NCBI GenBank assembly: GCA_965235115.1
Contig: OZ249436.1
Location: 3,412,001 to 3,476,000 of the forward strand
Reading direction: 5' to 3'
Length of the DNA stretch: 64,000 bases
From: Laetmonice hystrix
Taxonomy: Eukaryota
Each line of letters begins with the position of its first letter. Position 1 is the first letter of the stretch. The notes beneath the pieces were generated by a model. The model saw only the letters and a program-made list of their open reading frames with translations. It had not been told where the DNA came from and ran no database searches. The position numbers and the translations under genes were made by a program. This document shows, in pieces, positions 6,001 to 25,115 of this stretch.

Positions 6001-8461
6001 CAGTCGGTAAGATGTAGGGACTTCTCACTCTACTGGTTGGCCTCCCACACTGCTTGGCCTCACAGTGTACTGTTTGGCCTGACTTTACTCTTTGGCCTCA
6101 CTGTAGTGTTCGCTGGGGTGCTATGCCAGCCAGTACCTTGTAGCGATTTCTCACTGTACCGTTTGTCCTCCCTGTACCGTTTGCTTGTACACAACAGTAG
6201 CCAGTAATATAGGGACGCCTCATGTTTCATGTTTCCATGCCTTTATTGTCCAGGAGGCAGGCCATACGTTTCGTCTATTATCTACTCCCATCTAATCTAT
6301 GTCCCCTAGGACCATCTGTAAGCGTGCGAACACGTTGTCAGGTCGTCCCAATGACTGTTTGCCGTAAAGGTTTAGTTAACAATGGCAAATGACGTTGTAC
6401 GCCTTTTCTATATCAGATATCTCATCCCCAAGTAAGAAACAAACAAAGAAAGAGTACAGAGATTTGCAGGCAAGAAACACCAGGGTGCAGCGCAGCTCTA
6501 CTGAAGCGGCGGCAGAGGCGGTGACTGCACTGCCATCTTCCGGCTACCGGTGGAATCACCACGTATACCTGGCCGGGCTGGCGGGCACCTGTGGCTCTTA
6601 GGTTAAAGCAATGAGAAGCGGAAAATGGCTACATTTCTGATACGTCAAATTGAAACTACGCCCCCCAAAGTTATGATTCTTAGGCCAGATGTATAACTGT
6701 CAAACGTATAGGTCTCGTACGTTCGCTACAGATATATGGTTGTGATGTGTATACTTACCATTTGAGTATCTTCTCCAGATTTTACCATTAGATGCTCCTC
6801 GCCAGTACCTTTGATTTCCACTACCTCACTATAGTGTTTGCATGGCTACTAGGCCAGTCGGTAAGATGTAGGGACTTCTCACTCTACTGGTTGGCCTCCC
6901 ACACTGCTTGGCCTCACAGTGTACTGTTTGGCCTGACTTTACTCTTTGGCCTCACTGTAGTGTTCGCTGGGCTGCTAGGCCAGCCAGTACCTTGTAGCGA
7001 TTTCTCACTGTACCGTTTGTCCTCCCTGTACCGTTTGCTTGTACACAACAGTAGCCAGTAATATAGGGACGCCTCATGTTTCATGTTTCCATGCCTTTAT
7101 TGTCCAGGAGGCAGGCCATACGTTTCATCTATCATCTACTCCCATCTAATCTGTGTCCCCTAGAGACCATCTGTAAGCGTGCGACAACGTTGTCAGGTCG
7201 TCCCAATGACTGTTTGCCGTAGAAGTTTAGTTAACAATGGCAAATGACGTTGTACGCCTTTTCTATATCAGATATCCCATCCCCAAGTAAGAAACAAACA
7301 AAGAAAGAGTACAGAGATTTGCAGGCAAGAAACACCAGGGTGCAGCGCAGCTCTACTGAAGCGGCGGCAGAGGCGGTGACTGCACTGCCATCTTCCGGCT
7401 ACCGGTGGAATCACCACGTATACCTGGCCGGGCTGGCGGGCACCTGTGGCTCTTAGGTTAAAGCAATGAGAAGCGAAAAATGGCTACATTTCTGATACGT
7501 CAAATTGAAACTACGCCCCCCAAAGTTATGATTCTTAGGCCAGATGTATAACTGTCAAACGTATAGGTCTCGTACGTTCGCTACAGATATATGGTTGTGA
7601 TGTGTATACTTCCCATTTGAGTATCTTCTCCAGATTTTAACATTAGATGCTCCTCGCCAGTACCTTTGATTTCCACTACCTCACTGTAGTGTTTGCATGG
7701 CTACTAGGCCAGTCGGTAAGATGTAGGGACTTCTCACTCTACTGGTTGGCCTCCCACACTGCTTGGCCTCACAGTGTACTGTTTGGCCTGACTTTACTCT
7801 TTGGCCTCACTGTAGTGTTCGCTGGGGTGCTATGCCAGCTAGTACCTTGTAGCGATTTCTCACTGTACCGTTTGTCCTCCCTGTACCGTTTGCTTGTACA
7901 CAACAGTAGCCAGTAATATAGGGACGCCTCATGTTTCATGTTTCCATGCCTTTATTGTCCAGGAGGCAGGCCATACGTTTCGTCTATTATCTACTCCCAT
8001 CTAATCTATGTCCCCTAGGACCATCTGTAAGCGTGCGAACACGTTGTCAGGTCGTCCCAATGACTGTTTGCCGTAAAGGTTTAGTTAACAATGGCAAATG
8101 ACGTTGTACGCCTTTTCTATATCAGATATCTCATCCCCAAGTAAGAAACAAACAAAGAAAGAGTACAGAGATTTGCAGGCAAGAAACACCAGGGTGCAGC
8201 GCAGCTCTACTGAAGCGGCGGCAGAGGCGGTGACTGCACTGCCATCTTCCGGCTACCGGTGGAATCACCACGTATACCTGGCCGGGCTGGCGGGCACCTG
8301 TGGCTCTTAGGTTAAAGCAATGAGAAGCGAAAAATGGCTACATTTCTGATACGTCAAATTAAAACTACGCCCCCCAAGGTTATGATTCTTAGGCCAGATG
8401 TATAACTGTCAAACGTATAGGTCTCGTACGTTCGCTACAGATATATGGTTGTGATGTGTAT
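1..8461. repeat. Tandem satellite array, ~847-855 bp monomer, ~10 copies (left of insertion; continues beyond the window start)
   Basis: The same sequence and the same short ORFs recur every 847-855 bp (e.g. the 70-aa ORF at 431, 1278, 2132, 2985). The last monomer is cut at ...GTGATGTGTAT (8461). Confidence 0.98.
8456..8461 (+). repeat. Left target site duplication GTGTAT
   Basis: The empty monomer reads GATGTGTATACTTCCC. GTGTAT occurs on both sides of the element, and 6 bp is typical of Polinton TSDs. Confidence 0.96.
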
Positions 8462-8470
8462 AGTAGTACT

Positions 8471-8610
8471 GGGGCCGTTATAAAGTCCAAATCAATGTCA
8501 AGGTCATCCTGGGGTCAAGGTCACCGGTCAAGGTCACGGACGTGACCTTGACCGGTGACCTTGACACCCAGGGTGACCTTGACATTGACTAGGACTTTAT
8601 AACCGACCCC
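8471..8610. repeat. 140-bp imperfect palindrome (hairpin) in the left TIR; mirror copy at 27189-27328
   Basis: GGGGCCGTTATAAAGTCC...AGGTCACG-GA-CGTGACCT...GGACTTTATAACCGACCCC is self-complementary around 8539-8540. Confidence 0.93.
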
Positions 8611-8670
8611 AAATTTGAATAATAGGTTTCTTTTTTAGATGATAACGTTTTTTGTACGTGAGATGAAAGT

Positions 8671-9038
8671 TGTAGAACGAGCACATGATGATGTGTGTTA
8701 GGTGAACGTTGTTTGATAATGAAAGTTATAGAACGAGTACATGATGATGTATGTTAGGTGAACGTTGTTCGATAATGAAAGTTATAGAACGAGTACATGA
8801 TGATGTATATTAGGTGAACGTTGTTCGATAATGAACATTGTAGAACGAGTATTATGATGATGTGTGTTAGGTGAACGTTGTTTGATAATGAAAGTTATAG
8901 AACGAGTACATGATGATGTATATTAGGTGAACGTTGTTCGATAATGAACATTGTAGAACGAGTATTATGATGATGTGTGTTAGGTGAACGTTGTTTGATA
9001 ATGAAAATTGTAGAAGGAGCACATGATGATGTGTATGC
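8671..9038 (+). repeat. 56/57-bp minisatellite in the left TIR (~6.5 units)
   Basis: Unit T(G/A)TAGAACGAGTACATGATGATGT..TTAGGTGAACGTTGTT(T/C)GATAATGAA starting at 8671, 8727, 8783, 8839, 8896, 8952 and 9009 (partial). Confidence 0.95.
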
Positions 9039-9357
9039 AGATGACTTGGTAATGAGGCGAGAGGTGTGATGTCGGTTGACCATATTGGTTGACCAAGGTC
9101 AACGACCTTGAGCCAACGGCCTTGACCGGTTGACCTTGACGTTGACATGACGTTGGCCGTTCCAGCTGACGGTGTGGTGGGGGATATGAATGAAAGGTAA
9201 TGGAGAGGTAACTGAAAAACTAGGTCAGCAGGTGTAAATGAATGGTAGCCAAAATGAGATGATAATAAAAGAGGTGAGGTGTGGACAAGAGGTGTGTGGA
9301 CTGAACGGATAGTTGGACGAAGAATCGAATCGAAAAAAAAAAATGGAACTGAACAAC

Positions 9358-10356
9358 ATGAAGAGGATAAACAATGCTGTAGAGGCAAAAATGGAATGTG
9401 TGTTTGAAACGTTGGTACTGGCGGAAAGGTCCTTGAAAAGATGCGATGACAAGTTTCGTATTGTGAGTACAGATAAGCTTAGACAGTCTGCAAGTGACGT
9501 GAATATACAAATGGCACGTCCAACAGAAAAGCTTGACGGGACATGTGTCCTAATTGAAACTTATGAAGGCAAGCCTTGGTTGTGGGTGAGACACGATCGG
9601 AAGCCAACCAAAGCTGCAAGACGTCGTTTTAAAAAGTTTGAGAGAGAACTTACACCCGGATCACGTGTGGGAAAAGGTGTTTTTGAATGGAACGTGGAGA
9701 CTGACTTTAATGACGTTCCTGTGAACTGGAAAGCAGCTGGCGGTGTGCCTATAATAGGTGACGTTCCACAACCAGATAGTCGAGGACATACGATGGGTTG
9801 GGTTCCATTAGACTGTCATAATGGTTCACACGTATGGCATGCAAGCACAATTGATTCGGATATCGGAGTTGGACTCGTTCTTCGGCCTTTAAAGTGTCAA
9901 ACAGACCTTGAATTGGAATTAACTGTTGTACCTTTGGAAGACTTGCAAGGTTCAACGATGGAATTGATTGGGACAAATGTTAATGGTAATCCATATAAAT
10001 TAGGCTCGAAAAAGCGACCTGTCCATTTCCTTGTGCAGCACGGCAGCATTGAGTTAGATGGAACGAGAGTAAGGCCTGATAAGAATGACTTGTTGGAATG
10101 GTTTGCATCGCGTGAAGGACGTGTTGAAGGTGTTGTTTGGCACTGTACAAATGGACAAATGTTTAAAGTTCATCGCCATCATGTTAACCTACCCTGGCCA
10201 TTGGAAGGTAGGGCAACCTTACTGACGAGGCCTCTTACTCTGAACACAGGAGGGTATGATTTCCAGCCCGACTACATGATGGCAGTAGGTAAACAGTTTA
10301 ATGGCAGACGTTTTGAATCACTCTGGAAGTTAAATATCATGTTCATGGTCGAGTAG
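9358..10356 (+). CDS. RLIG1: ATP-dependent 5'-3' RNA ligase, RLIG1/C12orf29 family homologue (332 aa from ATG 9358; alternative ATG at 9343)
   Basis: Nucleotidyltransferase motif I (PTEKLDGT, Lys codon 9529-9531), then WVRHDRKP, WNVETDF, GHTMGWVP, ELIGTNVNGNPYKLGSKKRPVHFLVQHG, EGRVEGVVWHC and FKVHRHH..LPWP. These are collinear over the full length with human C12orf29/RLIG1 as I recall it. Confidence 0.9.
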   Translation: MKRINNAVEAKMECVFETLVLAERSLKRCDDKFRIVSTDKLRQSASDVNIQMARPTEKLDGTCVLIETYEGKPWLWVRHDRKPTKAARRRFKKFERELTPGSRVGKGVFEWNVETDFNDVPVNWKAAGGVPIIGDVPQPDSRGHTMGWVPLDCHNGSHVWHASTIDSDIGVGLVLRPLKCQTDLELELTVVPLEDLQGSTMELIGTNVNGNPYKLGSKKRPVHFLVQHGSIELDGTRVRPDKNDLLEWFASREGRVEGVVWHCTNGQMFKVHRHHVNLPWPLEGRATLLTRPLTLNTGGYDFQPDYMMAVGKQFNGRRFESLWKLNIMFMVE

Positions 10357-10390: not shown

Positions 10391-10419
10391 ATTGGTTGAT
10401 TGGGAAGGACATATAAATA
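10391..10419 (+). promoter_or_regulatory. Putative Pol II promoter for the ATPase (two ATTGG/CCAAT boxes plus TATAAATA)
   Basis: ATTGG at 10391 and 10399, TATAAATA at 10412-10419, about 90 nt upstream of ATG 10506. Confidence 0.5.
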
Positions 10420-10505
10420 GGTCACAGTGGAATGACATCACTATGTTAATGTTCTGCGATAGAGTCGTTACTCAGAGCGCGTTGACTTGGTCGATAGATA
10501 GTAGA

Positions 10506-11192
10506 ATGGACCCGAGGACAACAAAGTGGTGGGAAACAACCAGCCTGGCCCCTTTTAAAGAGAGGTCCAGCATATGCGTGGTTGGTGGCACGGGAAGTGG
10601 AAAAACGTACTGGACGTTCAGACTGCTGCAAAATATGCCTGGCATGTTTGAAGGAGAGGCACCTCAAAAGATTCTCTACTGTTACGGAGTTTGGCAGTCG
10701 TTGTATGATGAAATGGACAGCGTAATACCCGGGCTAATCTTTCACGAGGGTCTGCCATCCCCTTCGACGTTGGACGAACTCTCTGCTGATGGGGGACACC
10801 ACGTCATAATCATCGACGATCTGATAGATCAGATGGTAAAGAGTCCAGATATGGAACTGTTACTCACGAGGGGCTGCCATCACAAAAACCTGAGCGTCCT
10901 GTACCTAACTCAAAACCTGTTTCAAGGTGGGAAGAACGCTCGCACTATTGCACTGAATACCTGGTATTTGGTCATTTTTAAAAACCTGAGGGATGCCTCG
11001 CAAATAGGGTACTTGGCAGCCCAAATGTTTCCTGGGAAGAAGAGTGTTTTGAAAGAAGCCTATCAGGACGCGACCAAAGAACCCTATGGTTGTCTGGTGA
11101 TTGACAGCTCGCCTCATGCCGACGAGAAATACAGGTTGCGGACGCGAATATTTCCAAACGAAGATCCTGTAGTGTACGTTCCAAAGATATAA
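10506..11192 (+). CDS. A32/FtsK-like genome packaging ATPase (228 aa from the likely ATG at 10506)
   Basis: Walker A GGTGSGKT, Walker B IIIIDD, and the Polinton ATPase motifs TRGCHHKNLSVLYLTQNLF and RTIALNTWYLVIFKNLRD. Confidence 0.95.
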   Translation: MDPRTTKWWETTSLAPFKERSSICVVGGTGSGKTYWTFRLLQNMPGMFEGEAPQKILYCYGVWQSLYDEMDSVIPGLIFHEGLPSPSTLDELSADGGHHVIIIDDLIDQMVKSPDMELLLTRGCHHKNLSVLYLTQNLFQGGKNARTIALNTWYLVIFKNLRDASQIGYLAAQMFPGKKSVLKEAYQDATKEPYGCLVIDSSPHADEKYRLRTRIFPNEDPVVYVPKI

Positions 11193-11239: not shown

Positions 11240-11566
11240 ATGAGTAAACGCGTCAGAGCAAACTGGCCACTGATACAGTATTTGATGCAAACACTACCAC
11301 CGGTGCAGTTGAAAGCAGTCTTGACCACGCTGACATCTGATCAAGTGAATGCCTTGGGGGAGATTGCAGTAAATGTGTTGTATGGAACGATACCCATAAC
11401 GGCTGCCTACAAGCGTAACGGAAAGCGTTTTGCATCGAAGATCGAGTACATTGGAGATTCAACCCATAGCTGGAAAAAAAGAAGGACATTGATTCAAGCT
11501 AACGCCAATATCGTTCACTTCTTACTCAATGCAGCAAAGCCTTTCCTGAAAAGTCTTATACAATGA
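11240..11566 (+). CDS. Small Polinton hypothetical protein (108 aa)
   Basis: Clean ORF preceded by TATAAAAG (11188-11195). Its stop overlaps the next start (ATGA), and it lies in the structural gene block. Confidence 0.7.
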   Translation: MSKRVRANWPLIQYLMQTLPPVQLKAVLTTLTSDQVNALGEIAVNVLYGTIPITAAYKRNGKRFASKIEYIGDSTHSWKKRRTLIQANANIVHFLLNAAKPFLKSLIQ

Positions 11567-11901
11567 GTTCCAGGAAAATGGTTCTAGTGCCTATAGACAA
11601 ATACAATATTTTGCAAAAGTATCAAGTGGCAAAATCTCCCGCAGGCAGTGTGCTGGCCAATGCTGTGACGTCACCTTTAAACAGAGGAAAAGAAACACCC
11701 GAAACCCAAGAAGTCAGGGGAAAAGAAGAAGAAAAAGAAGAAGAAGAAGAAACTGTAGCCTCTCAACAAGTGATTCGACCCGACCTGACTCGTTTGAAGG
11801 TCGATGAATTAACCAGGAGAAGCAACAGGGCAATGAGGAGGAAACGTCGTCCCTCAAGAACAGACCAAAGCTTTAAGCGTGCCTCGTGGATCAAGATCTA
11901 G
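11563..11901 (+). CDS. Small hypothetical protein (112 aa) with an acidic run and basic C-terminus
   Basis: ATGA-coupled to the upstream ORF. N-terminal KMVLVP, poly-E tract, RRKRR and terminal WIKI. Confidence 0.6.
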   Translation: MSSRKMVLVPIDKYNILQKYQVAKSPAGSVLANAVTSPLNRGKETPETQEVRGKEEEKEEEEETVASQQVIRPDLTRLKVDELTRRSNRAMRRKRRPSRTDQSFKRASWIKI

Positions 11902-11936
11902 CTACACAGCAGTATACAGTCGTGACCAGGTCAGCC

Positions 11937-13043
11937 ATGGAAAGATATCTGCAAAGACGGTATAACGACCCTTCACAACCAGGAAGTTTCCAGAGCTTAC
12001 AGAAACTTTATACAAGTGCTAAAAGGGATGGACAACACGACATTACAAGAAAGGACGTTCAGCAGTACCTGCAAAAGGACAATGCTTATACCTTAAACCG
12101 ACAAGCTATCACTAAATTCCCAAGAAACCGGGTGGTAGTTGAAGGGATAGACTCTCAGTGGGATGTGGATCTCGCTGATCTCTCGTTGTTGGTGAAGGAT
12201 AATGATCAGTACAAGTACTTTTTACTTGCCATAGATATATTTAGCCGATACGTTTGGGTGAAACCGTTGAAGACAAAATATGCCAAGGAGATTGTACGTG
12301 CTCTAGAATCCGTTTTTAAAGACGGAAGACAGCCACAGTCGGTTAGGACAGACGGTGGCAGGGAATTTCAAAATCGAGTAGTCAAATCGTTCCTGAAAGA
12401 TCGAGGGGTACATCTGTTTAGAACTTTTAATGAGACACAAGCCAACTATGCGGAACGTGCTATTAAAACGATCAAATCCAGGATGTATCGTTACCTGATC
12501 AGCAAAAACTCGCTTCGATACATTACCGTCCTTCAAGATCTGGTAAAAAGCTACAACAAAACTGTGCACAGGAGCCTTGGACGATCGCCCTCAGAAGTAA
12601 ACGGCAACAATGAATCTGAGGTCCGGCTCGATCAGTACCTCCTCAGGAGACCGCCAAGGAACGACGAAGACATTCCAAGGCAGCGCATCTGGTTTAAGAT
12701 CGGTGATCAGGTACGGATTTCCTTCAGACGGGAACCGTTTGATCGTGAATACAATCAGCGTTGGACGGGTGAAGTATTTGTTATATCTGACAGACGCCGA
12801 CGCCACGGGATCCCCATCTATAATTTAAAAGACTGGAACGATGAACCTATTAAAGGCACATTTTATCAACACCAGCTTCAAAAGGTCGATGTGAGCGACG
12901 AAGACAACTTCAAGATCGAAAAGGTGTTGAAACGTAGGAAAAGAAACGGGAAAAAACAAGTGCTTGTCAAGTGGTTGCACTGGCCCTCAAAGTTCAATCA
13001 GTGGATCGACGAAGACATGATCGATGACCCAGGAAATGGATGA
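11937..13043 (+). CDS. Retroviral-like (rve/DDE) integrase with C-terminal chromodomain (368 aa from ATG 11937)
   Basis: Catalytic motifs WDVDLAD, VRTDGGREF and YAERAIKTIK. Chromodomain FKIEKVLKRRKRNGKKQVLVKWLHWPSKFNQWI. Confidence 0.96.
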   Translation: MERYLQRRYNDPSQPGSFQSLQKLYTSAKRDGQHDITRKDVQQYLQKDNAYTLNRQAITKFPRNRVVVEGIDSQWDVDLADLSLLVKDNDQYKYFLLAIDIFSRYVWVKPLKTKYAKEIVRALESVFKDGRQPQSVRTDGGREFQNRVVKSFLKDRGVHLFRTFNETQANYAERAIKTIKSRMYRYLISKNSLRYITVLQDLVKSYNKTVHRSLGRSPSEVNGNNESEVRLDQYLLRRPPRNDEDIPRQRIWFKIGDQVRISFRREPFDREYNQRWTGEVFVISDRRRRHGIPIYNLKDWNDEPIKGTFYQHQLQKVDVSDEDNFKIEKVLKRRKRNGKKQVLVKWLHWPSKFNQWIDEDMIDDPGNG

Positions 13044-13446
13044 CTTTTTCCTGTTTCTTTCTAGTGACGATTCTTTGGACTACTTTCCGCACAATACGCC
13101 GGGGGCGTTTACCATAAAATTGCACGAAACAGTGCATCTACAAGATGGACCCTGGTTTTGTGCGCTGAGGTATTTGAAATGTAAATCGACGGGTCCCACA
13201 GACATATACGTCTTCTGCGATCTTGTTGTCGATAGCTACGTCAGGAACGGAAAGTTGCCCATTCTACAACATGCCGTGCAGCACACAAAACGACACGTTA
13301 GCGAAAGTTTTGATTCTGTCGTATCCTTTCGATTGTCAAGACAAGTCTTCAACACTCTGACCGTGTATATAAAGAACGATAAAATGAAGACACCGGCATT
13401 CACAAAAGAACCGACGCGCTGCACTCTTCACATCTTTAAAAAATGA
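13024..13446 (+). CDS. Minor capsid (penton-like, single jelly-roll) protein, 140 aa
   Basis: N-terminus FFLFLSSDDSLDYFPHNTPGAFTIKL...W.CAL, then IYVFCDLV.DSYV...LPIL, and C-terminal CTLHI, matching the Polinton penton pattern. Confidence 0.8.
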   Translation: MTQEMDDFFLFLSSDDSLDYFPHNTPGAFTIKLHETVHLQDGPWFCALRYLKCKSTGPTDIYVFCDLVVDSYVRNGKLPILQHAVQHTKRHVSESFDSVVSFRLSRQVFNTLTVYIKNDKMKTPAFTKEPTRCTLHIFKK

Positions 13447-13814
13447 ATGAGAAACCTACGTTAGAACAGTGGAAACAACATTTTCGAGACATGCAACGCG
13501 GAACGACTAAACCAGGGAACAATGGCATGTGGCGCGTGCGTCATTACACAGAGAAGTCCAAGGACAGTGGGAATCCAAGTAGGCCGGTGATAAACTTGGT
13601 ATCGCCGACCCAGATGGCAGTACAGCAAGCCAGCCTGAAAAACAGAAAGAGAAAACTGAACGGTCGTGCTTCAAAGACAGTTGCAAAGCGTGCAAAAATT
13701 GCGACTGCAAAAAAGGGGAAAAAGCCAAAGGTAATCGGAAGAAGAAAACAACCACCACTCAAAATTAAAAAGAGGGGGAAAACGCAGCCCCTCAGGCAAA
13801 AGGTCTGGTCGTAA
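13443..13814 (+). CDS. Small highly basic protein (123 aa), possible DNA-condensing core protein
   Basis: ATGA-coupled to the penton. K/R-rich C-terminal half. Lies between the penton and the MCP. Confidence 0.65.
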   Translation: MNEKPTLEQWKQHFRDMQRGTTKPGNNGMWRVRHYTEKSKDSGNPSRPVINLVSPTQMAVQQASLKNRKRKLNGRASKTVAKRAKIATAKKGKKPKVIGRRKQPPLKIKKRGKTQPLRQKVWS

Positions 13815-13906: not shown

Positions 13907-15220
13907 ATGGCCGGGCACGGTGATAACGTGTCCCTGTTTTACACGCCAATCAGTGACAAGACCGTGGACAATGTTCAATGGATCGAACATAGGCCCGTCG
14001 GTCAGCTAAGCAGTGATGGGGCCTTGGAATTCAACGTGCCAGGAAATAGTTCAAAGTATGTAGATCTTGAGAACACACGGCTGAAAATCAAGCTGAGAAT
14101 AGTACAAGGAAACGGCAGCATGGTTCCAACTGGAGACAAGGGTGCAGCAACGCCTGCAATAGCCAAAGTAGGACCCGTGAACCTGACTTTGCAATCCCTT
14201 TGGCGCCAAGTCGACGTGAGTCTTCAGCAGCACATCATTTCTCCTGGAGTTGCTACCAAATATCCTTACAAGGCATACCTGGAGACGATTCTACAATACG
14301 GGGGTGACGCTAGAAGGACCCGGCTACAATCCCAACTGTTTTACAAGGACCAAGGAAACGCGGCTGAAAACGACCCTTTGGACGGTACAAATGCTGGACT
14401 TATTCAAAGAACCTTGCTGACCGTAGCAAGTCGGGTCGTGGACCTGGAAGGACCCGTTTACATGGACATTTGTCAACAAAACAGATACATCCTAAACGGT
14501 GTCACGATCAATTTCAAATTTTGGCCATGCAACAACCAGTTCAGACTCATGAGCTCGAACCCCACTGCCGATTACAAGATTGAAATCTTAGAAGCGGCTC
14601 TACAGGTGTGCATGATAGACGTTTCTTCTGATGTCATGATTGCCCATGCCGAGGCCTTGAAAGAGGGCCCGGCGAAATACTTTTTTGAGCGTACCGACAT
14701 GAAGTCTTTTGCGATAGCCCAGGGACAATACGGGTGCTCTCTGGAGAACATTTATCAAGGAGAGGTTCCAAGTCAAGTCATCGTAGGACTGGTGTCGTCT
14801 GAAGGATTTATGGGGAGCTTTTCGAAAAACCCGTTTGACTTTAGACCTTATGCATGTAACTTTATCGGATTCTATGTGGACGGGAAAAGCCAGCCGAGCG
14901 AACCGTTGACGCCAAACTACAAAGGCGGGAATTATGTGTCGGCATATCTGTCGACCTTTGGAGATTTCCACAAAAAGGATTTCGGTAATGCCATTTCAAG
15001 AGAGGACTATACAAACGGATATACTTTGTACGTTTTTGATGTGTGTCAAAACCATTGCGAAAAGTTTTCTCAGCATACCAAGAAAGGACATACTAGATTA
15101 GAAGTGAAATTCGCTGAAGCACTACCCGAGGCCGTCACTCTTGTCATGATGGCTAAGTTCCCTAACGTTCTGCACATTGATCAGGCCCGTAACGTTCAAG
15201 TTATTACGTCTCAGCATTAA
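13907..15220 (+). CDS. Major capsid protein (double jelly-roll, Polinton PY type), 437 aa
   Basis: Motifs LEFNVPG..YVDL..TRL, SLWRQVDVSL, YPYKAYLETIL, P.QVIVGLV...F.GSFSKNPFDF, GYTLYVFD and RLEVKFAEALP. TATAAAAG at 13818-13825 upstream. Confidence 0.93.
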   Translation: MAGHGDNVSLFYTPISDKTVDNVQWIEHRPVGQLSSDGALEFNVPGNSSKYVDLENTRLKIKLRIVQGNGSMVPTGDKGAATPAIAKVGPVNLTLQSLWRQVDVSLQQHIISPGVATKYPYKAYLETILQYGGDARRTRLQSQLFYKDQGNAAENDPLDGTNAGLIQRTLLTVASRVVDLEGPVYMDICQQNRYILNGVTINFKFWPCNNQFRLMSSNPTADYKIEILEAALQVCMIDVSSDVMIAHAEALKEGPAKYFFERTDMKSFAIAQGQYGCSLENIYQGEVPSQVIVGLVSSEGFMGSFSKNPFDFRPYACNFIGFYVDGKSQPSEPLTPNYKGGNYVSAYLSTFGDFHKKDFGNAISREDYTNGYTLYVFDVCQNHCEKFSQHTKKGHTRLEVKFAEALPEAVTLVMMAKFPNVLHIDQARNVQVITSQH

Positions 15221-15729: not shown

Positions 15730-18700
15730 CTAATACCCATACGGTAACGTGTCAAGATTGGGTTGTATCACCCTTTTAGTGTAAACCATACGATATTTCT
15801 TGTCTTCCACCTTGTTAAATATTTTGAAGGAACGCGGGTCTCTGCTAATTTTGGAGGGGTTTGTGATCCTGACTGTTTGTACCCCTTGTGGTTCACACAC
15901 CGTGCTTTTTAAAACATTAAAATTTATCTTTTTTGAATTACTGTAATTTAAAGTAAATCCTCGGACTTTGCACACTTCTTTGCCCGAGGCCGTCACGTAA
16001 GCATAATTTTTAGGTCCGGCAGACACATATTCAGTAATGTAATCCCCATCCAGTTCGTCAGTCAAATCTCCCAGATAATCCCCCGTTGGAGGGTCGTACT
16101 CGCCCTCCTTCGACACGTACATGACCGAGTCAGTGTCGAAATAACACAAGCGCCTTCCAATTTTATCGAGGACATCGTACAACTTTAATCTTGCCCAACA
16201 GGTGGTAAATGAGGCGAGAAAAACGTTTGTGCTGTTGTCGGGACCGCGGCAGTCGCTTGAATCGCGGTACTTGAGGTGAAGCATGTCCGAACTGACGATC
16301 GTAAAGTCAATCACCTCTTTTGTGGGATCAGTGAGGAGGGAATAAAAAAGACAGGCTTCAGAATCATGAATGAATTGCGATCTAGGGCGATTAAGACGTT
16401 GGCCAAATTTTCCCCAAAAACTGTTGAGGCATAGCTTCGCCAAAGAGCGCAATCCGGGGTTCTTTCTGATAGAATCGTAATGTAACTCTATCCCTTCATG
16501 ATCCCGATATTGGTTAATATACTGTCGTTTCTGGTCTTCGGTTTTACACCATTGCGGCCAGTCAGAGGCCTGCTGTTTGATTTTCAGGAATGTGTCTATA
16601 TATTCCTGGAAAAGGCCTGGTGTCTTACCATCTTTACTACATGTGACGGTGTCTTCCCAGTGATACACCTCGTACACTTTTACGATGGTGTATCCTTTCT
16701 CTAACGCTCGCCACAGTTCGGGGGTGCACCACGTGCCTGTTAACGCTCTTTCGTCATCAGAGCAAGCACAAACAGTCGTAAGTTCTCTGTCTGCACAGGT
16801 ACGACACAACGGGAACTTTAGTTTGCCGTTTGACCTGTACGGGAGAACCGGACTGTACAGCCCATGGGGTGGCAGGACTTTCACCTTGGCAATGCCGAAA
16901 TAGGATGTCAAGTCTTTGTCAACTTTGTCCATGGTCAAAATGGTGGGGTGCCCTCGGGGGTATGTCGCATATTTGTTCACGCTCGGGTAAAGACTGGTAA
17001 AATCGACATACTTTATCCGCTCCCCATCCTGAACTTTGTAATAGAGTTTACTGGCGTTAGTCCTGCCGCCGAAAAAGGAATCTCGGGGGTTTAATCTGGG
17101 TTGAACGTCCAGAGATTTGACAAAATCTCTCAGGATTGGATTTTGGGAATTTTCCCTTCGAAACTCACATTCCCACTTGGAACGGTAACTGTATCCCAAG
17201 CTACGGACGTGAGCTTCCCTTGTGAGGGTCAACGTGTGCAACTCGGATGTGGTTTGTCGGGTTAGAGGATGTCTCGTTGTTCTGTCAGGAAAACAACGAG
17301 GACATCCGTGAAAAACACACCCTAAAAATTCAAAGATTGTGTTTGTGGCAGGCTCGAATCCGTCTGCTCGGTAGGACGTGCCAGGTATTCTGAACTCGTC
17401 CCCATTCAGTGCATGCCGAATGGTCCGACCCTCACTGTGGACGAGCCATTCCAGCCACTGAATGGACACGTGGCTGTACTGATCTCTGCTATAACCATGT
17501 GTTGGCACTTGGGCAATGTCGGAAGATTCAAACTTCGAGAAAATCACGTCCCAGTCCTGACAAACCTGGGTAGCGCTCATCCAACAGTCGTGGATATAGT
17601 ACAGCCAAGAGTTGTCCTGCAGGCAGGCCTCCACACACAATTGGTCACCCGTTATTTTGTGTTTCAGATTAACGATGTGTTTTTCCTTCAAATGTTTGGT
17701 CTTAAAGACCGCCATGCACACTGAAGCTATTGTCACATACTGAAAAGGATCAACAGCCCCTGCCAAAGAGTCGTCGTCGGAGCTTGTGGTTACGGCAAGG
17801 AGTAAATTTCGAAATTTCATGCATGCTTCACGGAGAATCGTGACGTCAGAAATGCAATATTCTTTCATTTCTTTTCTGAAATCAAAAACTCGGCCGCTCT
17901 GCTGAGCATGCCATCCTAGAAACTCGCCTCTCTCTTTTGACGACATGTGGGCAACTCCGTAATCTTCAATGTCAGGATAGTTGCCCACATAGTGTTGGTT
18001 TTCCACTCTGTTAAACAGGTGAGGAAAATGACCCTTCTTTAGCTCAGCTAAATCAAAAGCTTTTGGTAGAGCAGAAAGCTTCATCGGGAAATAATTTAAG
18101 GAATCTAGGATCCTGATGTTCAACCCTTTGCCCACAGACATGTACATTATTTTTGAACCGTTATAAATTAGGGAATCGGGTCGAATGGATTGGCTAATTA
18201 GATATTCCAGAACGAAATATCCGTCATAACCACGCATGTTGTGGGCTAGGAGAGTGAACCCCCTGTGCTGAACGTTAAACACATACTCTCCAAAACTGTG
18301 AGCTGTGGTATCACCCTCAAAAATGCGCTGTCGAGCACCACATCCATCACATGGAAGACCAGCAAACGACTGAGATTCCCTATCCCACTTGTTGCACTGA
18401 CTACACCGATCGCCGCAGATCTCGCATGCCTCACTGATCGGGGAGTTTTGACACGCGTGACACGTCTTCTGGATTACGATATAATTTGGTACGTGAAAGT
18501 TTCTGCCACAGGAGGGATCCTGACAGTTTTGGCAAGTCCGACATGTGGCACACAATTCCCGCTTACCCACACAACCAGTGCACAAAAGCTTTTTCCGGGA
18601 ATAACCTCCAGAACACTCAAAAACACTGTCTTGACGACACTCAAAATCGAAAAACATAAATTTTGCCTTGGTCAGGTCCTTGTTCGGCGGAAGGGCACGG

Positions 18701-19989
18701 TGGAAACACAGGTGGTCCCCCGAAACGTACTGGTTACAGGTGCGGCAAAACCATTCCCCACATTTGTGTTTAGCAACGTGTCGCTTCTGCCGATCAACGA
18801 CGGCCTTGCAAGAAACACAACGCCACCAGCGTTGACATTGAGAGATTTCAGTATTCTTTTGGGGGTTTCTTTTTTTTGTTTGGGGAATTTTCTTGTGTCG
18901 GGCAAAACAGGCCTCACTCCTACACGTCATGTTACAATCTTGACAAACCACTGTACTGTCGGTCTGTGGACACCGTGTGGACTTGCAAACATTGCAGGTG
19001 GTGAGGCACGAATGCCTCTCTCTATTCTGGTAGGGCTTGAGACAGGCCTCGCAGAAATAGGAGTGGCAGAAAAAGCCTGCAATGTTTGCAATGGAGTGAA
19101 AGTGACCCTCCCCTTCAACGTCATCGACAAAATACAAATACAGCCGTTTTTTGGTTGATGGCGTTAAAGGCTGCTTTTCTTGTTGTGGGGGTATGCGGAG
19201 AAATTGGTTCCCCAGACGAGCGCTGAGGACAAAGATGTCCACACCGAGGACCTGCTCAAATTTGGAGATGTCATTGAGACATGCAGGTCCATCGGTGGAC
19301 ACCCCCGCCATTCCACATATCTTTCTTGCCAGCTTTTCTTGATCCCTCCTATCGCTGCGTTTAACATTTTGGTAATACCACTGAGGGACCTGATTATACC
19401 TTAACATAATGTTTAGCGTGTCTCGGGTGGTCAATCCGCGTGTCAAGACTCCCCATACTTGCGGGGACACAACGTGGGCTTTGGTCCACGATACACCTAT
19501 GGCGCGGGCAAGACAAAGGTGATCGGCATTAACAATTTCTACCAGAGACCTCTTTCTGTGAATAGAATTGTCCTCGCCCGATAACTGGGTGAGCTGCATC
19601 CGATCACCGTAACCACCTATGGGCATTTCTATTGTGCCGATGTCCACTCTAAAATTTTCGTCGATTGCCAAATCTTTTTCACTGTTCTCGACATTTTCGA
19701 CGGTGTCATGGATGTCTTCGATCTCCAACCTTTCTATGGGGCGAAGGGGTACAACGATTGGACTGTCCAAACTAGGATGGTGGATTACAATGCGAATAAG
19801 GTCCGTACCTTTAAGATGGTCGGCAGCTTCTGACACCATGTCGCCAAACACATTGCGTAGGGAACGGTGCACCTCAGACGGTTTACGACCTTGCATATGC
19901 GCTTGATTTATTTTAACTTCATAGGTTGTGTCCCGCGCACCGTTACACTTGAAAGTCCGGGTGCTCCGCTGCCTCAATGTGTATGGCTC
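15730..19989 (-). CDS. Protein-primed family B DNA polymerase, main (last) exon, 1419 aa
   Basis: ExoI FFDFEC, ExoII AHNMRGYDGYF, ExoIII YCISDV; polymerase motifs VDFTSLYP, KLCLNSFWGKFG and YFDTDS. Also Cys-rich Zn-finger regions, a VSR-like insert (RADGF...EFLGCVFHGC) and an OTU-like Cys/His pair (DHLCLARAI...GHF). A splice acceptor (TTCTTACAG) ends at 19990. Confidence 0.95.
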   Translation of the reverse strand, partial: EPYTLRQRSTRTFKCNGARDTTYEVKINQAHMQGRKPSEVHRSLRNVFGDMVSEAADHLKGTDLIRIVIHHPSLDSPIVVPLRPIERLEIEDIHDTVENVENSEKDLAIDENFRVDIGTIEMPIGGYGDRMQLTQLSGEDNSIHRKRSLVEIVNADHLCLARAIGVSWTKAHVVSPQVWGVLTRGLTTRDTLNIMLRYNQVPQWYYQNVKRSDRRDQEKLARKICGMAGVSTDGPACLNDISKFEQVLGVDIFVLSARLGNQFLRIPPQQEKQPLTPSTKKRLYLYFVDDVEGEGHFHSIANIAGFFCHSYFCEACLKPYQNRERHSCLTTCNVCKSTRCPQTDSTVVCQDCNMTCRSEACFARHKKIPQTKKRNPQKNTEISQCQRWWRCVSCKAVVDRQKRHVAKHKCGEWFCRTCNQYVSGDHLCFHRALPPNKDLTKAKFMFFDFECRQDSVFECSGGYSRKKLLCTGCVGKRELCATCRTCQNCQDPSCGRNFHVPNYIVIQKTCHACQNSPISEACEICGDRCSQCNKWDRESQSFAGLPCDGCGARQRIFEGDTTAHSFGEYVFNVQHRGFTLLAHNMRGYDGYFVLEYLISQSIRPDSLIYNGSKIMYMSVGKGLNIRILDSLNYFPMKLSALPKAFDLAELKKGHFPHLFNRVENQHYVGNYPDIEDYGVAHMSSKERGEFLGWHAQQSGRVFDFRKEMKEYCISDVTILREACMKFRNLLLAVTTSSDDDSLAGAVDPFQYVTIASVCMAVFKTKHLKEKHIVNLKHKITGDQLCVEACLQDNSWLYYIHDCWMSATQVCQDWDVIFSKFESSDIAQVPTHGYSRDQYSHVSIQWLEWLVHSEGRTIRHALNGDEFRIPGTSYRADGFEPATNTIFEFLGCVFHGCPRCFPDRTTRHPLTRQTTSELHTLTLTREAHVRSLGYSYRSKWECEFRRENSQNPILRDFVKSLDVQPRLNPRDSFFGGRTNASKLYYKVQDGERIKYVDFTSLYPSVNKYATYPRGHPTILTMDKVDKDLTSYFGIAKVKVLPPHGLYSPVLPYRSNGKLKFPLCRTCADRELTTVCACSDDERALTGTWCTPELWRALEKGYTIVKVYEVYHWEDTVTCSKDGKTPGLFQEYIDTFLKIKQQASDWPQWCKTEDQKRQYINQYRDHEGIELHYDSIRKNPGLRSLAKLCLNSFWGKFGQRLNRPRSQFIHDSEACLFYSLLTDPTKEVIDFTIVSSDMLHLKYRDSSDCRGPDNSTNVFLASFTTCWARLKLYDVLDKIGRRLCYFDTDSVMYVSKEGEYDPPTGDYLGDLTDELDGDYITEYVSAGPKNYAYVTASGKEVCKVRGFTLNYSNSKKINFNVLKSTVCEPQGVQTVRITNPSKISRDPRSFKIFNKVEDKKYRMVYTKRVIQPNLDTLPYGY

Positions 19990-20134
19990 CTGTAAGAAAC
20001 GAATGCACACGAATTGTAAACAGCGTGTCTTTATTACTGCGTCTTCTTTATCGCAATGTACAATAATGTAAGTGAAGTATAAATAAATAAATAAATAAAA
20101 AAATAAATAAAAAAATAAATAAATAAATAAATAC

Positions 20135-20869
20135 CATGGTATCAGCATCATCGCTGTCCTCATCGGTTCCCGAGAAACCAGCGACATAGGGGAGGGTCAT
20201 CGGCTGGAACAAGGGATAAAACACAACCTATTTACACAGGCGAAATATATTGAGTATTTCACGTATTTATTATTATTTATTTATTTATTTCAATTTTTAT
20301 TATCATTACTATTATGAAGAAAGAAAAGTGGTGACGTAAGGCGTAAGACGTACCACGTAACACAACTTGAGACTGTTTTTACCTCGAATGTTGAGTTTCC
20401 TGTACCGGGACCTTCGGGAGACCATCCCGAAGGTCCCGGTACGGAAGACTCCACCGAGTATCCCGACTGAGGGGACCCAGCCGAAGGGCCAGTCACGGGA
20501 GACAGCGTCGAGGGTCCTGGAGACATAATCAACTGTCGTGGAGAGAAAAAAAAAATCAAATGAGGTAAAATAATAAAAAAAGATGAATGGATGAATGAAT
20601 GAATGAATGAATGAATGAATGAATAAAGTAATCCTTATGTATTACTTATAAAGTAAAGTGGTCCTTACCAGGTCTTCTCCTCTTAGCAACCGTTCCAAGA
20701 TGCTCTTGGCTCGTTTAGGAGGAGGATGTTGTCTGTCAGACTCGCAGTCTGGCTTCCTTTTCCGTGTTGTCTGAAACAATTTAAATTCATTTTACTTGAA
20801 TAATTTCATGTTTTTAATTTAATGTCTTATTTAATATTCGTCGTCTTCTTCATCTTCTTCTTCTTGTTC

Positions 20870-20905
<36 letters not shown>

Positions 20906-22159
20906 AGTACCTTCTCCTCCTGCATGCTTTTCACCTCCTCCACCGCCTTGCTTGTCTCCTCCACCGTCATTGTTGCATCTTTTTCCTCCTGCCGAAATTC
21001 AGCGTCCCAACTCACCTCCTCAACGATATCGATATCGTTCTGAAACGATGGTGCACGCAAGTCAATAAACACCTCAAGGTAGAGTTTAAAACTATGGCTT
21101 GTCACAGCGAGAATAGTTAAATAGCGAAAATTATAATAATAAAATTGATAGAAAAACTAATATAACTAATACCTCTTCCTCCTTCTCTTGGTCAAATTCC
21201 GAGTCCCAATCAACTCCCTCGACTAAGGCCTCGATATCGATATCGTTCTGAAACGACGGTGCACGCACGTCAATAAACACCTCAAGGTAGAGTTTAAAAC
21301 TATGGCTTGTCAGCGAAAATAGTTAAATAGCGAAAATAATAATAATAAAATTGATAGAAAAACTAATATAACTAATACCTCCTGCTCTTTCTCCTGTTCG
21401 AAGTCCGAGTCCCAATCGACTCCCTCGACAAGTGCATCGATATCAATATCGACGGTTGTATTGTTTGGCGCCTCATTTAAGTTGTCAGAAAATGAGGCGC
21501 CATGATCGATCGGAGTCGGATCAGTCTGAAACAATCACGTGTTTGTAACAATAAACTCCGAAACAAAGAATGCATAGATGTAAGTCTGTGCAAACAAATG
21601 TTTGTAAAACTCAATAATTCCATTATTTCCAACAAGAGCTGGATATCCATTCTATGTGTGGACTACCATCCTTACCGGAGTGTCGGGTGCCTCCGCCCCC
21701 CAGTCTATAGTGTCCAGCAAAGCTGCCACCTCTGCTGGATCAAAGTTCTGAAAGTCAAATCAAATGAAGGTTGAGCAGACAGTTAGAGATTTAGAGATTA
21801 TCACATATCTGCTATGCTCTGAACGCACAAGCGTAAGTAAAAGACCTAGCCTGCCCACCTGTCGTCACGCCAACGACTCCGTCACTGACCTTACTTGACC
21901 CCCACTTGACCCTAACACGTCCCCCATCACACTACCCTAGTAGCGCTCCATTACAGACCTTGATAGCACATACAGCCATAGGCTTACGTGTGGGGGTGTG
22001 GGTGGGTGGGTGTGTGTGGGTGCGTGTGTGGGTGTGGGTGTGTGTGGGTGGGTGGGTGTAACCGTTTTAAATAAGAAAAGTCAATGAGTTTACCTGGATA
22101 TCGGTGCTGCTGCTCATGTTAACGAGCTCTTGATCAATCCAGTCAAGAATACCATCCAT
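20135..22159 (-). CDS. Eight predicted upstream coding exons of the PolB gene: 22159-22094, 21747-21676, 21525-21379, 21247-21173, 21039-20911, 20770-20669, 20532-20383, 20203-20135 (270 aa)
   Basis: Each exon is bounded by YAG and GTA, has a length divisible by 3 and is stop-free. The chain starts at ATG 22159 and joins in frame to 19989. Introns are mostly AT-rich or contain microsatellites. Confidence 0.8.
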
Positions 22160-22348
22160 CTGTAAGAATAAAAATGTTTATATATTCTCTCAGTATATAT
22201 CCTAGACATAATGGTACTTCCATTCAGTTCACAGAGAAACATTCTTCGAGACAGATCTTGGTTAGGTCAACGAGAGTCTCGTTAGTTAGGTCAACCATAT
22301 CAAGATTTATATCAATATTTATAAGAATACAGTTAAGCTAAAACAATC

Positions 22349-22936: not shown

Positions 22937-23025
22937 GTTTTCCCCTTTTTTCATTCCTAGCATAGTGATACCCTTGTAGTTCTAAGTAGTTGTAACAAAC
23001 AAAAGTTGTAAAAAAAAAAACTTAC

Positions 23026-25034: not shown

Positions 25035-25051
25035 CGCACACACACGCACAC

Positions 25052-25097
<46 letters not shown>

Positions 25098-25115
25098 CAC
25101 CCCCACACACACGCA
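25035..25115 (+). repeat. (AC)n microsatellite
   Basis: Direct observation. Confidence 0.9.

What the first reader, a model, noticed from the sequence alone, without database searches (positions are those of the whole stretch)
9358..10356. Polinton carries an intact RLIG1/C12orf29-family RNA ligase, a candidate viral RNA-repair / counter-defence gene
Seen: the first gene inside the left TIR is an intronless 332-aa ORF with all ligase motifs (KxDG at Lys58, ELIG, EGVVW, FKVH). Established: RLIG1 is an ATP-dependent ligase that joins 5'-phosphate to 3'-OH RNA ends. It is not a core Polinton gene, and viral RNA ligases such as T4 Rnl1 repair tRNAs cut by host anticodon nucleases. Inference: the element captured a host-type RNA ligase and may use it to repair RNA cleaved by antiviral or stress nucleases. 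I see no polynucleotide kinase/phosphatase partner, so end-healing would have to come from the host. I am not aware of RLIG1 being described as Polinton cargo, but I cannot check the literature.
Basis: partly seen in the sequence, partly recalled or inferred. Interest (0 to 1): 0.92.

Follow-up and report, generated by a model that had tools for sequence, protein, structure and literature searches.

The report
Virus-like transposon carrying captured RNA ligase
A recently active virus-like transposon (Polinton) in an invertebrate genome carries an intact copy of the animal RNA-joining enzyme RLIG1 that it took from its host lineage and has kept under selection, which hints at a conflict fought at the level of broken RNA.

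Summary
Window 9358-10356 (+) is an intact RLIG1-family RNA ligase (Pfam PF17720, E 1.8e-103). All 14 family-invariant residues are present, and a confident model matches only the solved viral RLIG1 structure. It is the first gene inside the left terminal repeat of an 18,876-bp Polinton (8462-27337) with a 6-bp target duplication, polymerase, integrase, packaging ATPase and capsid gene.

New here:
- The genome also holds a solitary RLIG1 on contig C13, next to an Rft-1 gene as in two metagenome contigs. This looks like the host's own gene.
- The Polinton copies form one clade (100/100) that is sister to that host gene and nested among animal RLIG1s. This points to capture from the host lineage.
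- At least two Polinton lineages carry it. Their RLIG1 genes differ by dS 0.36-0.52, while core genes are saturated, so the gene moved between lineages as a cassette.
- dN/dS is 0.27-0.31 (95% bounds below 0.45).

No end-healing partner was found and no RNA data exist. The repair or counter-defence role is therefore inferred, and had already been predicted in print for viral RLIG1s in general.

The parts
8456..8461 (.). Left target-site duplication GTGTAT
   Evidence: Read directly. Empty units of the flanking satellite show the uninterrupted site.
8462..9181 (.). Left terminal inverted repeat. It begins AGTAGT and contains 56/113-nt internal tandem repeats at 8663-9036.
   Evidence: Inverted-repeat pairs I1 (575 nt, 99%) and I2 (441 nt, 96%); tandem repeats. 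The AGTAGT...ACTACT end motif is as reported for vertebrate Mavericks (PMC8097293, passages).
9343..10356 (+). RLIG1-family RNA ligase gene.
   Evidence: Pfam PF17720 E 1.8e-103. 14 invariant residues K58 D60 G61 W124 G147 E202 G205 H223 H228 E257 G258 K270 H275 W280. AF2 model pLDDT 94.2, pTM 0.91. All 12 Foldseek PDB hits at E<=1e-3 are chains of Yasminevirus RLIG1 9c6l/9c6m. Upstream ATG.
10392..11192 (+). A32-like genome-packaging ATPase
   Evidence: Pfam Pox_A32 E 1.4e-5, 25.1 bits against a cut-off of 22.8. 109 matches in the genome.
11240..11901 (+). Two small ORFs (108 and 112 aa), function unassigned. The first is conserved in the second lineage.
11886..13043 (+). Retrovirus-like integrase with C-terminal chromodomain
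   Evidence: Pfam rve E 9e-11 and Chromo E 4.6e-9.
13024..13814 (+). Two small conserved ORFs (140 and 123 aa), unassigned
13907..15220 (+). Double jelly-roll major capsid protein
   Evidence: AF2 model pLDDT 88.6. Foldseek PDB: PBCV-1, iridovirus, mavirus and Sputnik capsid proteins, best E 3.5e-15, 253 hits at E<=1e-3. Atlas lead PF21738. Homologues named F54H12.2-like.
15730..20187 (-). [quoted passage not shown]
   Evidence: Pfam DNA_pol_B_2 E 5.3e-48 at residues 1035-1337.
20188..26504 (.). Second accessory region with ORFs 22349-22936(+), 23764-24156(+), 25301-26008(-) and 26019-26420(+). Penton and protease were not identified.
   Evidence: No Pfam family above its cut-off. ORFs 22349 and 25301 are conserved in the second lineage at 38-47%.
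26505..27337 (.). Right terminal inverted repeat, ends ACTACT
27338..27343 (.). Right target-site duplication GTGTAT

Best explanation
A Polinton/Maverick (an integrating virus-like element) captured the host lineage's own RLIG1 gene and keeps it as an accessory gene in the region just inside one terminal repeat.

Shown:
- The protein is a complete RLIG1-family ATP-dependent RNA ligase with the adenylylated lysine (K58) and all other family-invariant residues.
- It derives from animal, host-lineage RLIG1.
- It has been under purifying selection while on Polintons.
- It has moved as a gene-sized cassette between two Polinton lineages whose core genes are saturated at synonymous sites.
- The carrying element transposed recently.

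Inferred (my odds about 0.4 for this part): during element expression the ligase adenylylates itself, transfers AMP to a 5'-phosphate RNA end and seals it to a 3'-OH end in single-stranded loops such as tRNA anticodon loops or rRNA. This would raise the cell's capacity to reseal RNAs broken by stress or by host RNA-cleaving responses, and so keep translation running for the element. Because no end-healing enzyme is encoded, either the breaks must already carry 5'-P/3'-OH ends or host enzymes must heal them.
For: - Family and catalytic integrity: Pfam E 1.8e-103. There are 14 invariant columns in a 56-sequence alignment, among them K58, D60, E202, E257 and K270. These correspond by motif and constant offset to human K57, D59, E195, E250 and K263, named as key residues in PMC9931718 (passages). 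K58 aligns with the lysine that is Met in the Yasminevirus K73M structure. The fold matches 9c6l at E 3.6e-15 with target TM 0.74.
- Host origin: in the careful tree of 50 rows the Polinton clade has support 100/100, it is sister to (C13 solitary copy + P0002) at 100/99, and P0003 comes next at 100/97. The C13 copy has no Polinton gene within about 14 kb. It has Rft-1 exons 4.6 kb downstream in convergent orientation, as in metagenome contigs L040 and L065.
- Selection: dN/dS is 0.276 (95% 0.199-0.389), 0.310 (0.227-0.430) and 0.266 (0.193-0.358) for the three between-lineage pairs.
- Catalytic residues are kept in 8 of 8 other full-length copies.
- Cassette transfer: RLIG1 dS between the window and second-lineage copies is 0.36-0.52, while every other shared gene except two small ORFs (o11240, pS 0.67; o26019, pS 0.59; both against C2a) has pS 0.76-0.90. 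Nucleotide similarity stops within 23 nt of the ORF ends.
- Recent activity: a second full copy of 18,876 bp with its own TSD GCTCTG has all 13 ORFs 99-100% identical.
- Enzymology of the family (5'-P/3'-OH ends, ssRNA loops, tRNA anticodon loops, 28S rRNA under oxidative stress) comes from PMC9931718 and PMC11494293 (passages) and from abstracts.
Against: - There is no expression or activity evidence for this gene.
- No polynucleotide kinase, phosphatase or phosphodiesterase was found: 16 + 40 ORFs of this element and 28 ORFs of the second lineage's accessory region gave nothing. PMC11494293 notes that many RNases leave ends RLIG1 cannot join without healing.
- dN/dS of about 0.3 is looser than for core genes of the same elements (0.05-0.17) and than the Polinton-host comparison (0.12-0.18).
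- 15 of the 22 RLIG1 loci in the genome are truncated, fragmented or carry a stop. This is expected for dead insertions but gives no support.
- None of the 120 listed database hits exceeds 60% identity, so the Polinton-type gene has so far been seen in this genome only.
- No host nuclease that it would counter was identified.
Confidence: 0.5

Rival explanations
1. The ligase works on the element's own transcripts rather than on damaged host RNA. It would circularise or join element RNAs without the spliceosome, giving stable circular or processed RNAs that help expression or persistence.
For: Knock-down of host RLIG1 lowered circular/linear ratios of HSV-1 and KSHV RNAs. It halved HSV-1 yield and about doubled KSHV yield (PMC12000468, passages). 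A nuclear dsDNA virus can therefore depend on this enzyme for its own RNAs. The gene is intact and under purifying selection.
Against: There are no RNA data for this element. The herpesvirus effects were modest and locus-specific. The host already has its own RLIG1, so a second copy would matter only through dosage or timing.
Confidence: 0.15
2. The gene is a passenger. It was picked up in the accessory region and spreads with the element without helping it. Its intactness would reflect residual or host-level selection, or cargo that benefits the host.
For: - Polintons are known to carry and move host genes as cargo (Widen et al. 2023, as cited in PMC11131425, passage seen).
- Only 9 of 27 PolB loci have RLIG1 nearby, so elements do without it.
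- dN/dS is looser than for core genes.
Against: - Divergence of dS 0.36-0.74 among Polinton-borne copies with dN/dS 0.27-0.31 and upper bounds below 0.45 means long purifying selection on Polinton backbones.
- All 14 invariant residues are kept.
- The gene was acquired a second time by an unrelated backbone as a precise cassette. That is hard to explain without an advantage.
Confidence: 0.2
3. The enzyme is used mainly for its second step.
For: Human RLIG1 forms Ap2N-capped RNA from 5'-p RNA in vitro and accounts for about 20% of such caps in cells (PMC13598233, passages).
Against: That paper calls the in vivo contribution minor. No feature of this protein separates it from ligating homologues, since all the invariant residues are the same.
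Confidence: 0.07
4. The ORF is a decaying or non-functional remnant, or a chance open frame.
For: 15 of the 22 genomic RLIG1 loci are truncated, fragmented or carry a stop.
Against: The profile match covers the full length. Seven full-length copies have no stop. The model is confident. dN/dS is well below 1.
Confidence: 0.02

Closest known systems
Vertebrate RLIG1 / C12orf29 (Pfam PF17720), human 5'-P/3'-OH RNA ligase
   Same: Full-length profile match. 43-48% identity to fish, lancelet and mollusc RLIG1s. Same invariant residues. Single-domain minimal ligase.
   Different: It is encoded by a mobile virus-like element rather than at a chromosomal host locus. It is present in many copies (22 loci). 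Its constraint is looser than in the host comparison. Its activity is untested.
The host's own RLIG1 in this genome (contig C13:18866673-18867716)
   Same: 61% amino-acid identity and the same 14 invariant residues. Both are intronless single ORFs.
   Different: The host copy is solitary and lies next to an Rft-1 gene, as in two metagenome contigs. P0002, from another assembly, is 80% identical to it. Its dS to the Polinton copies is 1.4-2.6.
Viral RLIG1 homologues: Yasminevirus (PDB 9c6l/9c6m), Terrestrivirus, Marseillevirus LCMAC201, Cellulophaga phage phi10:1
   Same: Same fold and a virus-borne context. A counter-defence role like T4 Rnl1 is predicted for them in PMC11494293.
   Different: They are only 13-26% identical and shorter (166-277 aa). 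They belong to giant viruses and a phage. The Polinton gene is of the animal type and is a separate, later capture. Viral-contig relatives are 21-35% identical.
Phage T4 Rnl1 + Pnk tRNA repair against the PrrC anticodon nuclease
   Same: A virus-encoded ligase for 5'-P/3'-OH RNA ends that acts on single-stranded loops. RLIG1 is described as structurally and functionally similar to T4 RNA ligase (PMC11494293).
   Different: No Pnk-type healing enzyme is present in either Polinton lineage. No cognate host nuclease is known. The RNA-binding domain of Rnl1 is absent in RLIG1.
Polinton/Maverick accessory (cargo) genes
   Same: The gene lies in the accessory region between a TIR and the core modules, as described for vertebrate Mavericks (PMC8097293). 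Host-gene capture is reported in nematode elements (cited in PMC11131425).
   Different: 'Ligase' does not occur in the three surveys checked. Here the source host gene can be named, and the cargo has been exchanged between lineages.

Membership tests
RLIG1 / C12orf29 (PF17720) | Profile match above Pfam's curated cut-off over the whole domain | tested here: met
   346.2 bits against a cut-off of 25, E 1.8e-103, profile positions 5-320 of 324.
RLIG1 / C12orf29 (PF17720) | Motif I KxDG with the lysine that is adenylylated (human K57) | tested here: met
   EKLDG with K58. The column is invariant in 56 sequences. It aligns with Yasminevirus K73, which is Met in the K73M entry.
RLIG1 / C12orf29 (PF17720) | Other catalytic residues (human D59, E195, E250, K263) | tested here: met
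   D60, E202, E257 and K270 are invariant columns. The human numbering comes from PMC9931718. The correspondence rests on motif and constant offset, because the human sequence itself was not in the alignment.
RLIG1 / C12orf29 (PF17720) | Minimal ATP-grasp-like nucleotidyltransferase fold of the solved RLIG1 | tested here: met
   Model pLDDT 94.2. All 12 of 12 Foldseek hits at E<=1e-3 are chains of 9c6l/9c6m; best E 3.6e-15, target TM 0.74.
RLIG1 / C12orf29 (PF17720) | ATP-dependent auto-adenylylation and ligation of 5'-P to 3'-OH RNA | not testable with these tools
   Needs recombinant protein and a K58A control.
Polinton / Maverick | Protein-primed family B polymerase and retrovirus-like integrase | tested here: met
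   DNA_pol_B_2 E 5.3e-48; rve E 9e-11.
Polinton / Maverick | Long terminal inverted repeats and a 6-bp target-site duplication | tested here: met
   TIR 575 nt at 99%. TSD GTGTAT here and GCTCTG at the sister copy. AGTAGT...ACTACT ends as in PMC8097293.
Polinton / Maverick | Virion module: double jelly-roll capsid protein and A32-like ATPase | tested here: met
   Capsid fold. Pox_A32 at 25.1 bits against a cut-off of 22.8.
Polinton / Maverick | Penton (minor capsid) protein and adenain-like protease | tested here: inconclusive
   No Pfam hit among 56 ORFs. The Atlas gave no usable hit for ORF 25301-26008.
T4-type heal-and-seal RNA repair system (Rnl1 + Pnk) | A 5'-kinase / 3'-phosphatase end-healing enzyme encoded with the ligase | tested here: not met
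   No such family in 16 + 40 ORFs of this element or in 28 ORFs of the second lineage. It may work like Rnl1 but is not a member of that two-enzyme system.
T4-type heal-and-seal RNA repair system (Rnl1 + Pnk) | A cognate host nuclease whose cuts are repaired | not tested
   No candidate was sought in the host genome.

The most novel reading that the evidence does not exclude
RLIG1 is a mobile counter-defence cassette of animal Polintons, traded between lineages because it reseals RNAs cut by a host anti-element response. That would make it the first animal-virus counterpart of T4 Rnl1. It would also imply that this host attacks Polintons, or shuts down its own translation, by RNA cleavage. One pointed version rests on my own recollection and on no call: Argonaute/PIWI slicing leaves 5'-P and 3'-OH ends, exactly what RLIG1 joins without healing, so the ligase could blunt small-RNA silencing of the element. 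Against that version, human RLIG1 did not seal nicks in DNA-splinted duplexes (PMC9931718).
Probability: 0.25. Interest if true: 0.85.

Novelty: new member of a known kind. Interest (0 to 1): 0.55.

Why it matters
RLIG1 was recognised as an animal RNA ligase only in 2023, and a 2025 paper (PMC12000468, passage seen) still calls its in vivo substrates largely unknown. Here a virus-like element has taken the animal-type gene, kept it functional-looking for a long time and passed it to an unrelated element. That is the pattern expected of a gene that pays its way during infection. The same genome holds the host copy and the element copies at 61% identity, so transcripts and proteins can be told apart. 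This gives a natural system for asking what RNA breaks RLIG1 repairs and whether viruses exploit it. It also adds an RNA-repair enzyme to the known cargo of Polintons, with a clear case of gene-sized exchange between lineages.

Tried and rejected
- RNA evidence: the look-up of sequencing runs listed 3 runs of one study that hold the DNA, and no RNA holder was listed. This says nothing about expression.
- A scan of viral contigs with the single protein found nothing. With the alignment it found 10 loci at 21-35% identity, none Polinton-like by tblastn with the 13 element proteins.
- Metagenome contigs (64 loci): the same tblastn found only RLIG1. Their neighbours are ordinary host genes, so they gave host context and no further Polinton carriers.
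The context of those 10 loci therefore rests on coordinates only. The PolB list is a lower bound, since 31 of 520 candidates were scored.
- Rfam found nothing in the window.
- The Atlas gave no usable hit for ORF 25301-26008.
- Earlier notes of this scan: none on Polinton-borne RLIG1.
- Rejected reading: independent capture of the host gene by each lineage. The Polinton copies are one clade on a long stem (0.26) apart from the host copy. Their mutual dS (0.36-0.74) is far below their dS to the host copy (1.4-2.6).
- Rejected reading: intronlessness as a sign of capture through mRNA. The host copy and the metagenome host genes are mostly single frames too.
- Rejected reading: RLIG1 as the most divergent gene between sibling elements C2a and C5 because of replacement. 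Its dS there (0.74) is like that of integrase and capsid (0.68, 0.70), so the lower amino-acid identity comes from looser constraint.
Full report
**1. The observation**

Window 9358-10356 (+) reads as one open frame of 332 codons plus a stop. Against Pfam it matches a single family, RLIG1 (PF17720). The match has E 1.8e-103 and 346.2 bits against a curated cut-off of 25, and it runs end to end: residues 6-324, profile positions 5-320 of 324.

- In an alignment of 56 family members there are 14 invariant columns: K58, D60, G61, W124, G147, E202, G205, H223, H228, E257, G258, K270, H275 and W280 in this protein's numbering.
- PMC9931718 (passages seen) names human K57, D59, E195, E250 and K263 as the key catalytic residues. 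K58/D60 and E202/E257/K270 correspond by motif and by constant offsets (+1 and +7). The human sequence itself was not in my alignment, so this step is inference.
- A sequence search of the PDB finds only the Yasminevirus RLIG1 entries (E 2.8e-12). K58 aligns with their K73, which is Met in the K73M mutant entry.
- An AlphaFold2 model built on the alignment is confident (mean pLDDT 94.2, pTM 0.91).
- In Foldseek against the PDB, all 12 hits at E<=1e-3 are chains of 9c6l/9c6m (best E 3.6e-15, target TM 0.74).
- Against predicted viral structures there are 4 hits at E<=1e-3: Yasminevirus, Terrestrivirus, Cellulophaga phage phi10:1 and Marseillevirus LCMAC201, at 13-24% identity.
- One correction of detail. 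An in-frame ATG at 9343 lies 15 nt upstream. The second-lineage copies begin MELND at the same place, and nucleotide similarity between lineages begins at 9335. The product is therefore probably 337 aa.

**2. The element**

Inverted repeats of 575 nt (99%) and 441 nt (96%) bound the region, with arms 8462-9181 and 26505-27337. The flanks are a tandem satellite of about 853 bp, and many empty units show the uninterrupted site.

- Reading the junctions gives an element of exactly 8462-27337 (18,876 bp). It begins AGTAGT, ends ACTACT, and is flanked by a 6-bp duplication GTGTAT. PMC8097293 (passages) reports the same end motif for vertebrate Mavericks. It also describes accessory regions between the TIRs and the core modules, which is where RLIG1 lies.
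- Core genes: A32-like ATPase (10392-11192), rve integrase with chromodomain (11886-13043), and protein-primed PolB (15730-20187, minus strand).
- The 437-aa ORF at 13907-15220 had no Pfam hit. Its model (pLDDT 88.6) matches double jelly-roll capsid proteins of PBCV-1, an iridovirus, mavirus and Sputnik (best E 3.5e-15; 253 hits at E<=1e-3).
- I could not identify a penton or a protease.
- No kinase, phosphatase or phosphodiesterase family appears among 16 + 40 ORFs of the element or among 28 ORFs of the second lineage's accessory region.

**3. Copies in the same genome**

The window lies in a 627-Mb assembly of 35 contigs. A six-frame search with the protein gives 31 matches, which I group into 22 loci.

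- Seven loci are full length without a stop. Two are full length with one stop. One covers residues 13-330 with one stop. Twelve are truncated or fragmented.
- A bivalve RLIG1 used as query finds the same loci and no intron-bearing extra gene (29 matches).
- A second complete copy on C1 is also 18,876 bp long. It has its own duplication GCTCTG, and all 13 ORFs are 99-100% identical, so the element moved recently.
- A third copy on C7 is a fragment without TIR or polymerase.
- Three further elements (two on C2, one on C5) belong to a second lineage with a different gene order. There RLIG1 is again the gene next to a terminus, but it is followed by the homologue of ORF 25301 and then the ATPase.
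- By coordinates, 12 of the 22 RLIG1 loci have a Polinton ATPase within 6 kb or a PolB within 30 kb, and 9 of 27 PolB loci have RLIG1 within 30 kb. The PolB list is a lower bound, since 31 of 520 candidates were scored. Flanks of the other 10 loci could not be fetched.
- All 14 invariant residues are kept in the 8 other full-length copies examined, including the two with a stop.

**4. The host's own gene and the direction of transfer**

One intact copy, on C13, has no Polinton gene within about 14 kb.

- Metagenome contigs that carry animal-type RLIG1 (64 loci) have ordinary cellular neighbours: Rft-1 in L040 and L065, PAXX in L042 and L052, RPC5 in L041, and a zinc-finger gene in L058. None carries a homologue of the other 12 element proteins.
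- The C13 copy has Rft-1 exons 4.6 kb downstream on the opposite strand. This is the arrangement seen in L040 and L065.
- P0002, from another assembly, is 80% identical to the C13 protein.
- In a careful maximum-likelihood tree of 50 rows the four Polinton-borne sequences form a clade (100/100). C13 pairs with P0002 (98/86), the two groups are sisters (100/99), and P0003 is next (100/97). All lie among lophotrochozoan sequences, apart from the mollusc and vertebrate clades. A quick tree of 73 rows agrees.
- The Rft1-linked locus occurs on both sides of the Polinton clade, so the simplest reading is capture from the host lineage, not donation to it.
- Intronlessness says nothing about how the gene was captured, because the host gene is also a single frame.
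- Among the 120 database hits listed, none exceeds 60% identity to the window protein. The Polinton-type gene is therefore so far known only from this genome.

**5. Selection and exchange**

All values below are Nei-Gojobori estimates.

- Between the window element and the second lineage, every shared gene except RLIG1 and two small ORFs (o11240, pS 0.67; o26019, pS 0.59; both only against C2a) is saturated at synonymous sites (pS 0.76-0.90). RLIG1 has dS 0.36-0.52.
- In protein identity RLIG1 is the best conserved gene between the lineages: 72-81%, against 66-67% for the ATPase and 50-53% for PolB.
- Nucleotide similarity of 80-86% is confined to 9335-10364. The TIR and flanks do not align.
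- Within the second lineage (C2a against C5), RLIG1 dS (0.74) is like that of integrase (0.68) and capsid (0.70).
- The window lineage therefore acquired its RLIG1 from a second-lineage-like donor long after the backbones had diverged, and as a gene-sized cassette.
- dN/dS among Polinton-borne copies is 0.276 (95% bootstrap 0.199-0.389), 0.310 (0.227-0.430) and 0.266 (0.193-0.358); no bootstrap replicate exceeded 0.54. This is purifying selection. It is looser than for the core genes (0.05-0.17) and than the comparisons with the host copy (0.12-0.18). Part of that looseness may come from neutral change after each copy died.

**6. How it most likely works**

From print:
- RLIG1 adenylylates itself on the motif I lysine and joins 5'-phosphate to 3'-hydroxyl RNA ends.
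- It does not seal nicks in DNA-splinted duplexes, but it joins ends in open hairpin loops (PMC9931718).
- It ligates tRNA in the anticodon loop in vitro.
- Its authors predict that viral homologues combat host immunity as T4 Rnl1 does (PMC11494293, passages and a supplement passage).

My best reading is that the element supplies extra ligase during its expression, to reseal broken tRNA, rRNA or its own RNAs and so protect translation. I give this part odds of about 0.4. The anatomy, origin, constraint and exchange I take as shown.

The lack of a healing enzyme means that the ends must already be ligatable, or that host enzymes prepare them.

Rivals with some published backing:
- Ligase-dependent circular RNA formation. 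RLIG1 knock-down lowered HSV-1 and KSHV circular/linear ratios (PMC12000468).
- App-capping of 5'-p RNA (PMC13598233).
- A pure passenger gene remains possible, but it fits poorly with long constraint and a second acquisition.

No RNA run was listed for this DNA, so expression is open.

**7. Novelty**

Viral RLIG1 homologues (giant viruses, a phage) and Polinton cargo genes are both known.

- Searches of the held library found 0 papers with C12orf29 + polinton, 0 with RLIG1 + polinton and 0 with 'RNA ligase' + mavericks. They found 10 with 'RNA ligase' + polinton, none of which concerns a Polinton-borne ligase by title or abstract.
- 'Ligase' does not occur in three Polinton/Maverick surveys (passage searches only). 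bioRxiv supplements and subscription journals were not searchable.
- Earlier notes of this scan mention RLIG1 in a phage, in Naegleria and in a DPANN archaeon, and none on a Polinton.

I file it as a new member of known kinds. The added points are that the host source gene can be named and that the gene moved between lineages.

Noticed in passing
window 1-8461 and 27338-64000: The rest of the window is one tandem satellite array with a unit of about 853 bp. Units are 96-100% identical. The Polinton sits inside one unit. A 118-aa ORF recurs in the array (27383-27739, 28236-28592, 29944-30300); the one copy scanned, 27383-27739, has no Pfam match.
   Followed up: partly
window 8663-9036 and 26650-27136: Both TIRs contain a 56-nt (113-nt higher-order) tandem repeat, with 6.6 copies on the left and 8.6 on the right. 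This accounts for the unequal TIR lengths.
   Followed up: no
window 21024-21451 and 25175-25327: The right-hand accessory region holds further tandem repeats: 206 nt x 2.1 copies and 54 nt x 2.8 copies.
   Followed up: no
window 15730-20187 (-): The polymerase is 1485 aa, but Pfam explains only residues 1035-1337. About 1000 N-terminal residues are unassigned.
   Followed up: no
own genome, e.g. C8:29306548-29335844: The ATPase query also hits 50 or more loci at 34-39% identity inside open frames of 260-640 aa. Among them are five copies spaced 6-8 kb apart on C8. This is a different, abundant element family carrying a related ATPase domain.
   Followed up: no
L040, L065, L042, L052, L041 (metagenome contigs): Host-type RLIG1 genes show recurring neighbours: Rft-1 (L040, L065), PAXX (L042, L052) and RPC5 (L041). 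L065 has a mariner-like transposase fragment between RLIG1 and Rft-1. In L040 two same-frame open stretches (586-1137, 1141-1740) overlap its RLIG1 match and are split by one stop codon.
   Followed up: partly
own genome C7:9768117-9773980 (L012): This is a fragment of the same element. It is cut 163 nt upstream of RLIG1 and has no left TIR. Its integrase frame is broken near residue 221, and nothing follows the capsid gene in the stretch fetched. Its RLIG1 ORF is still intact.
   Followed up: yes
window 10411-10419: A TATAAATAG lies just inside the listed TTG-start frame of the ATPase ORF, 55 nt after the RLIG1 stop. The ATPase probably starts further downstream and may have its own promoter.
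   Followed up: no
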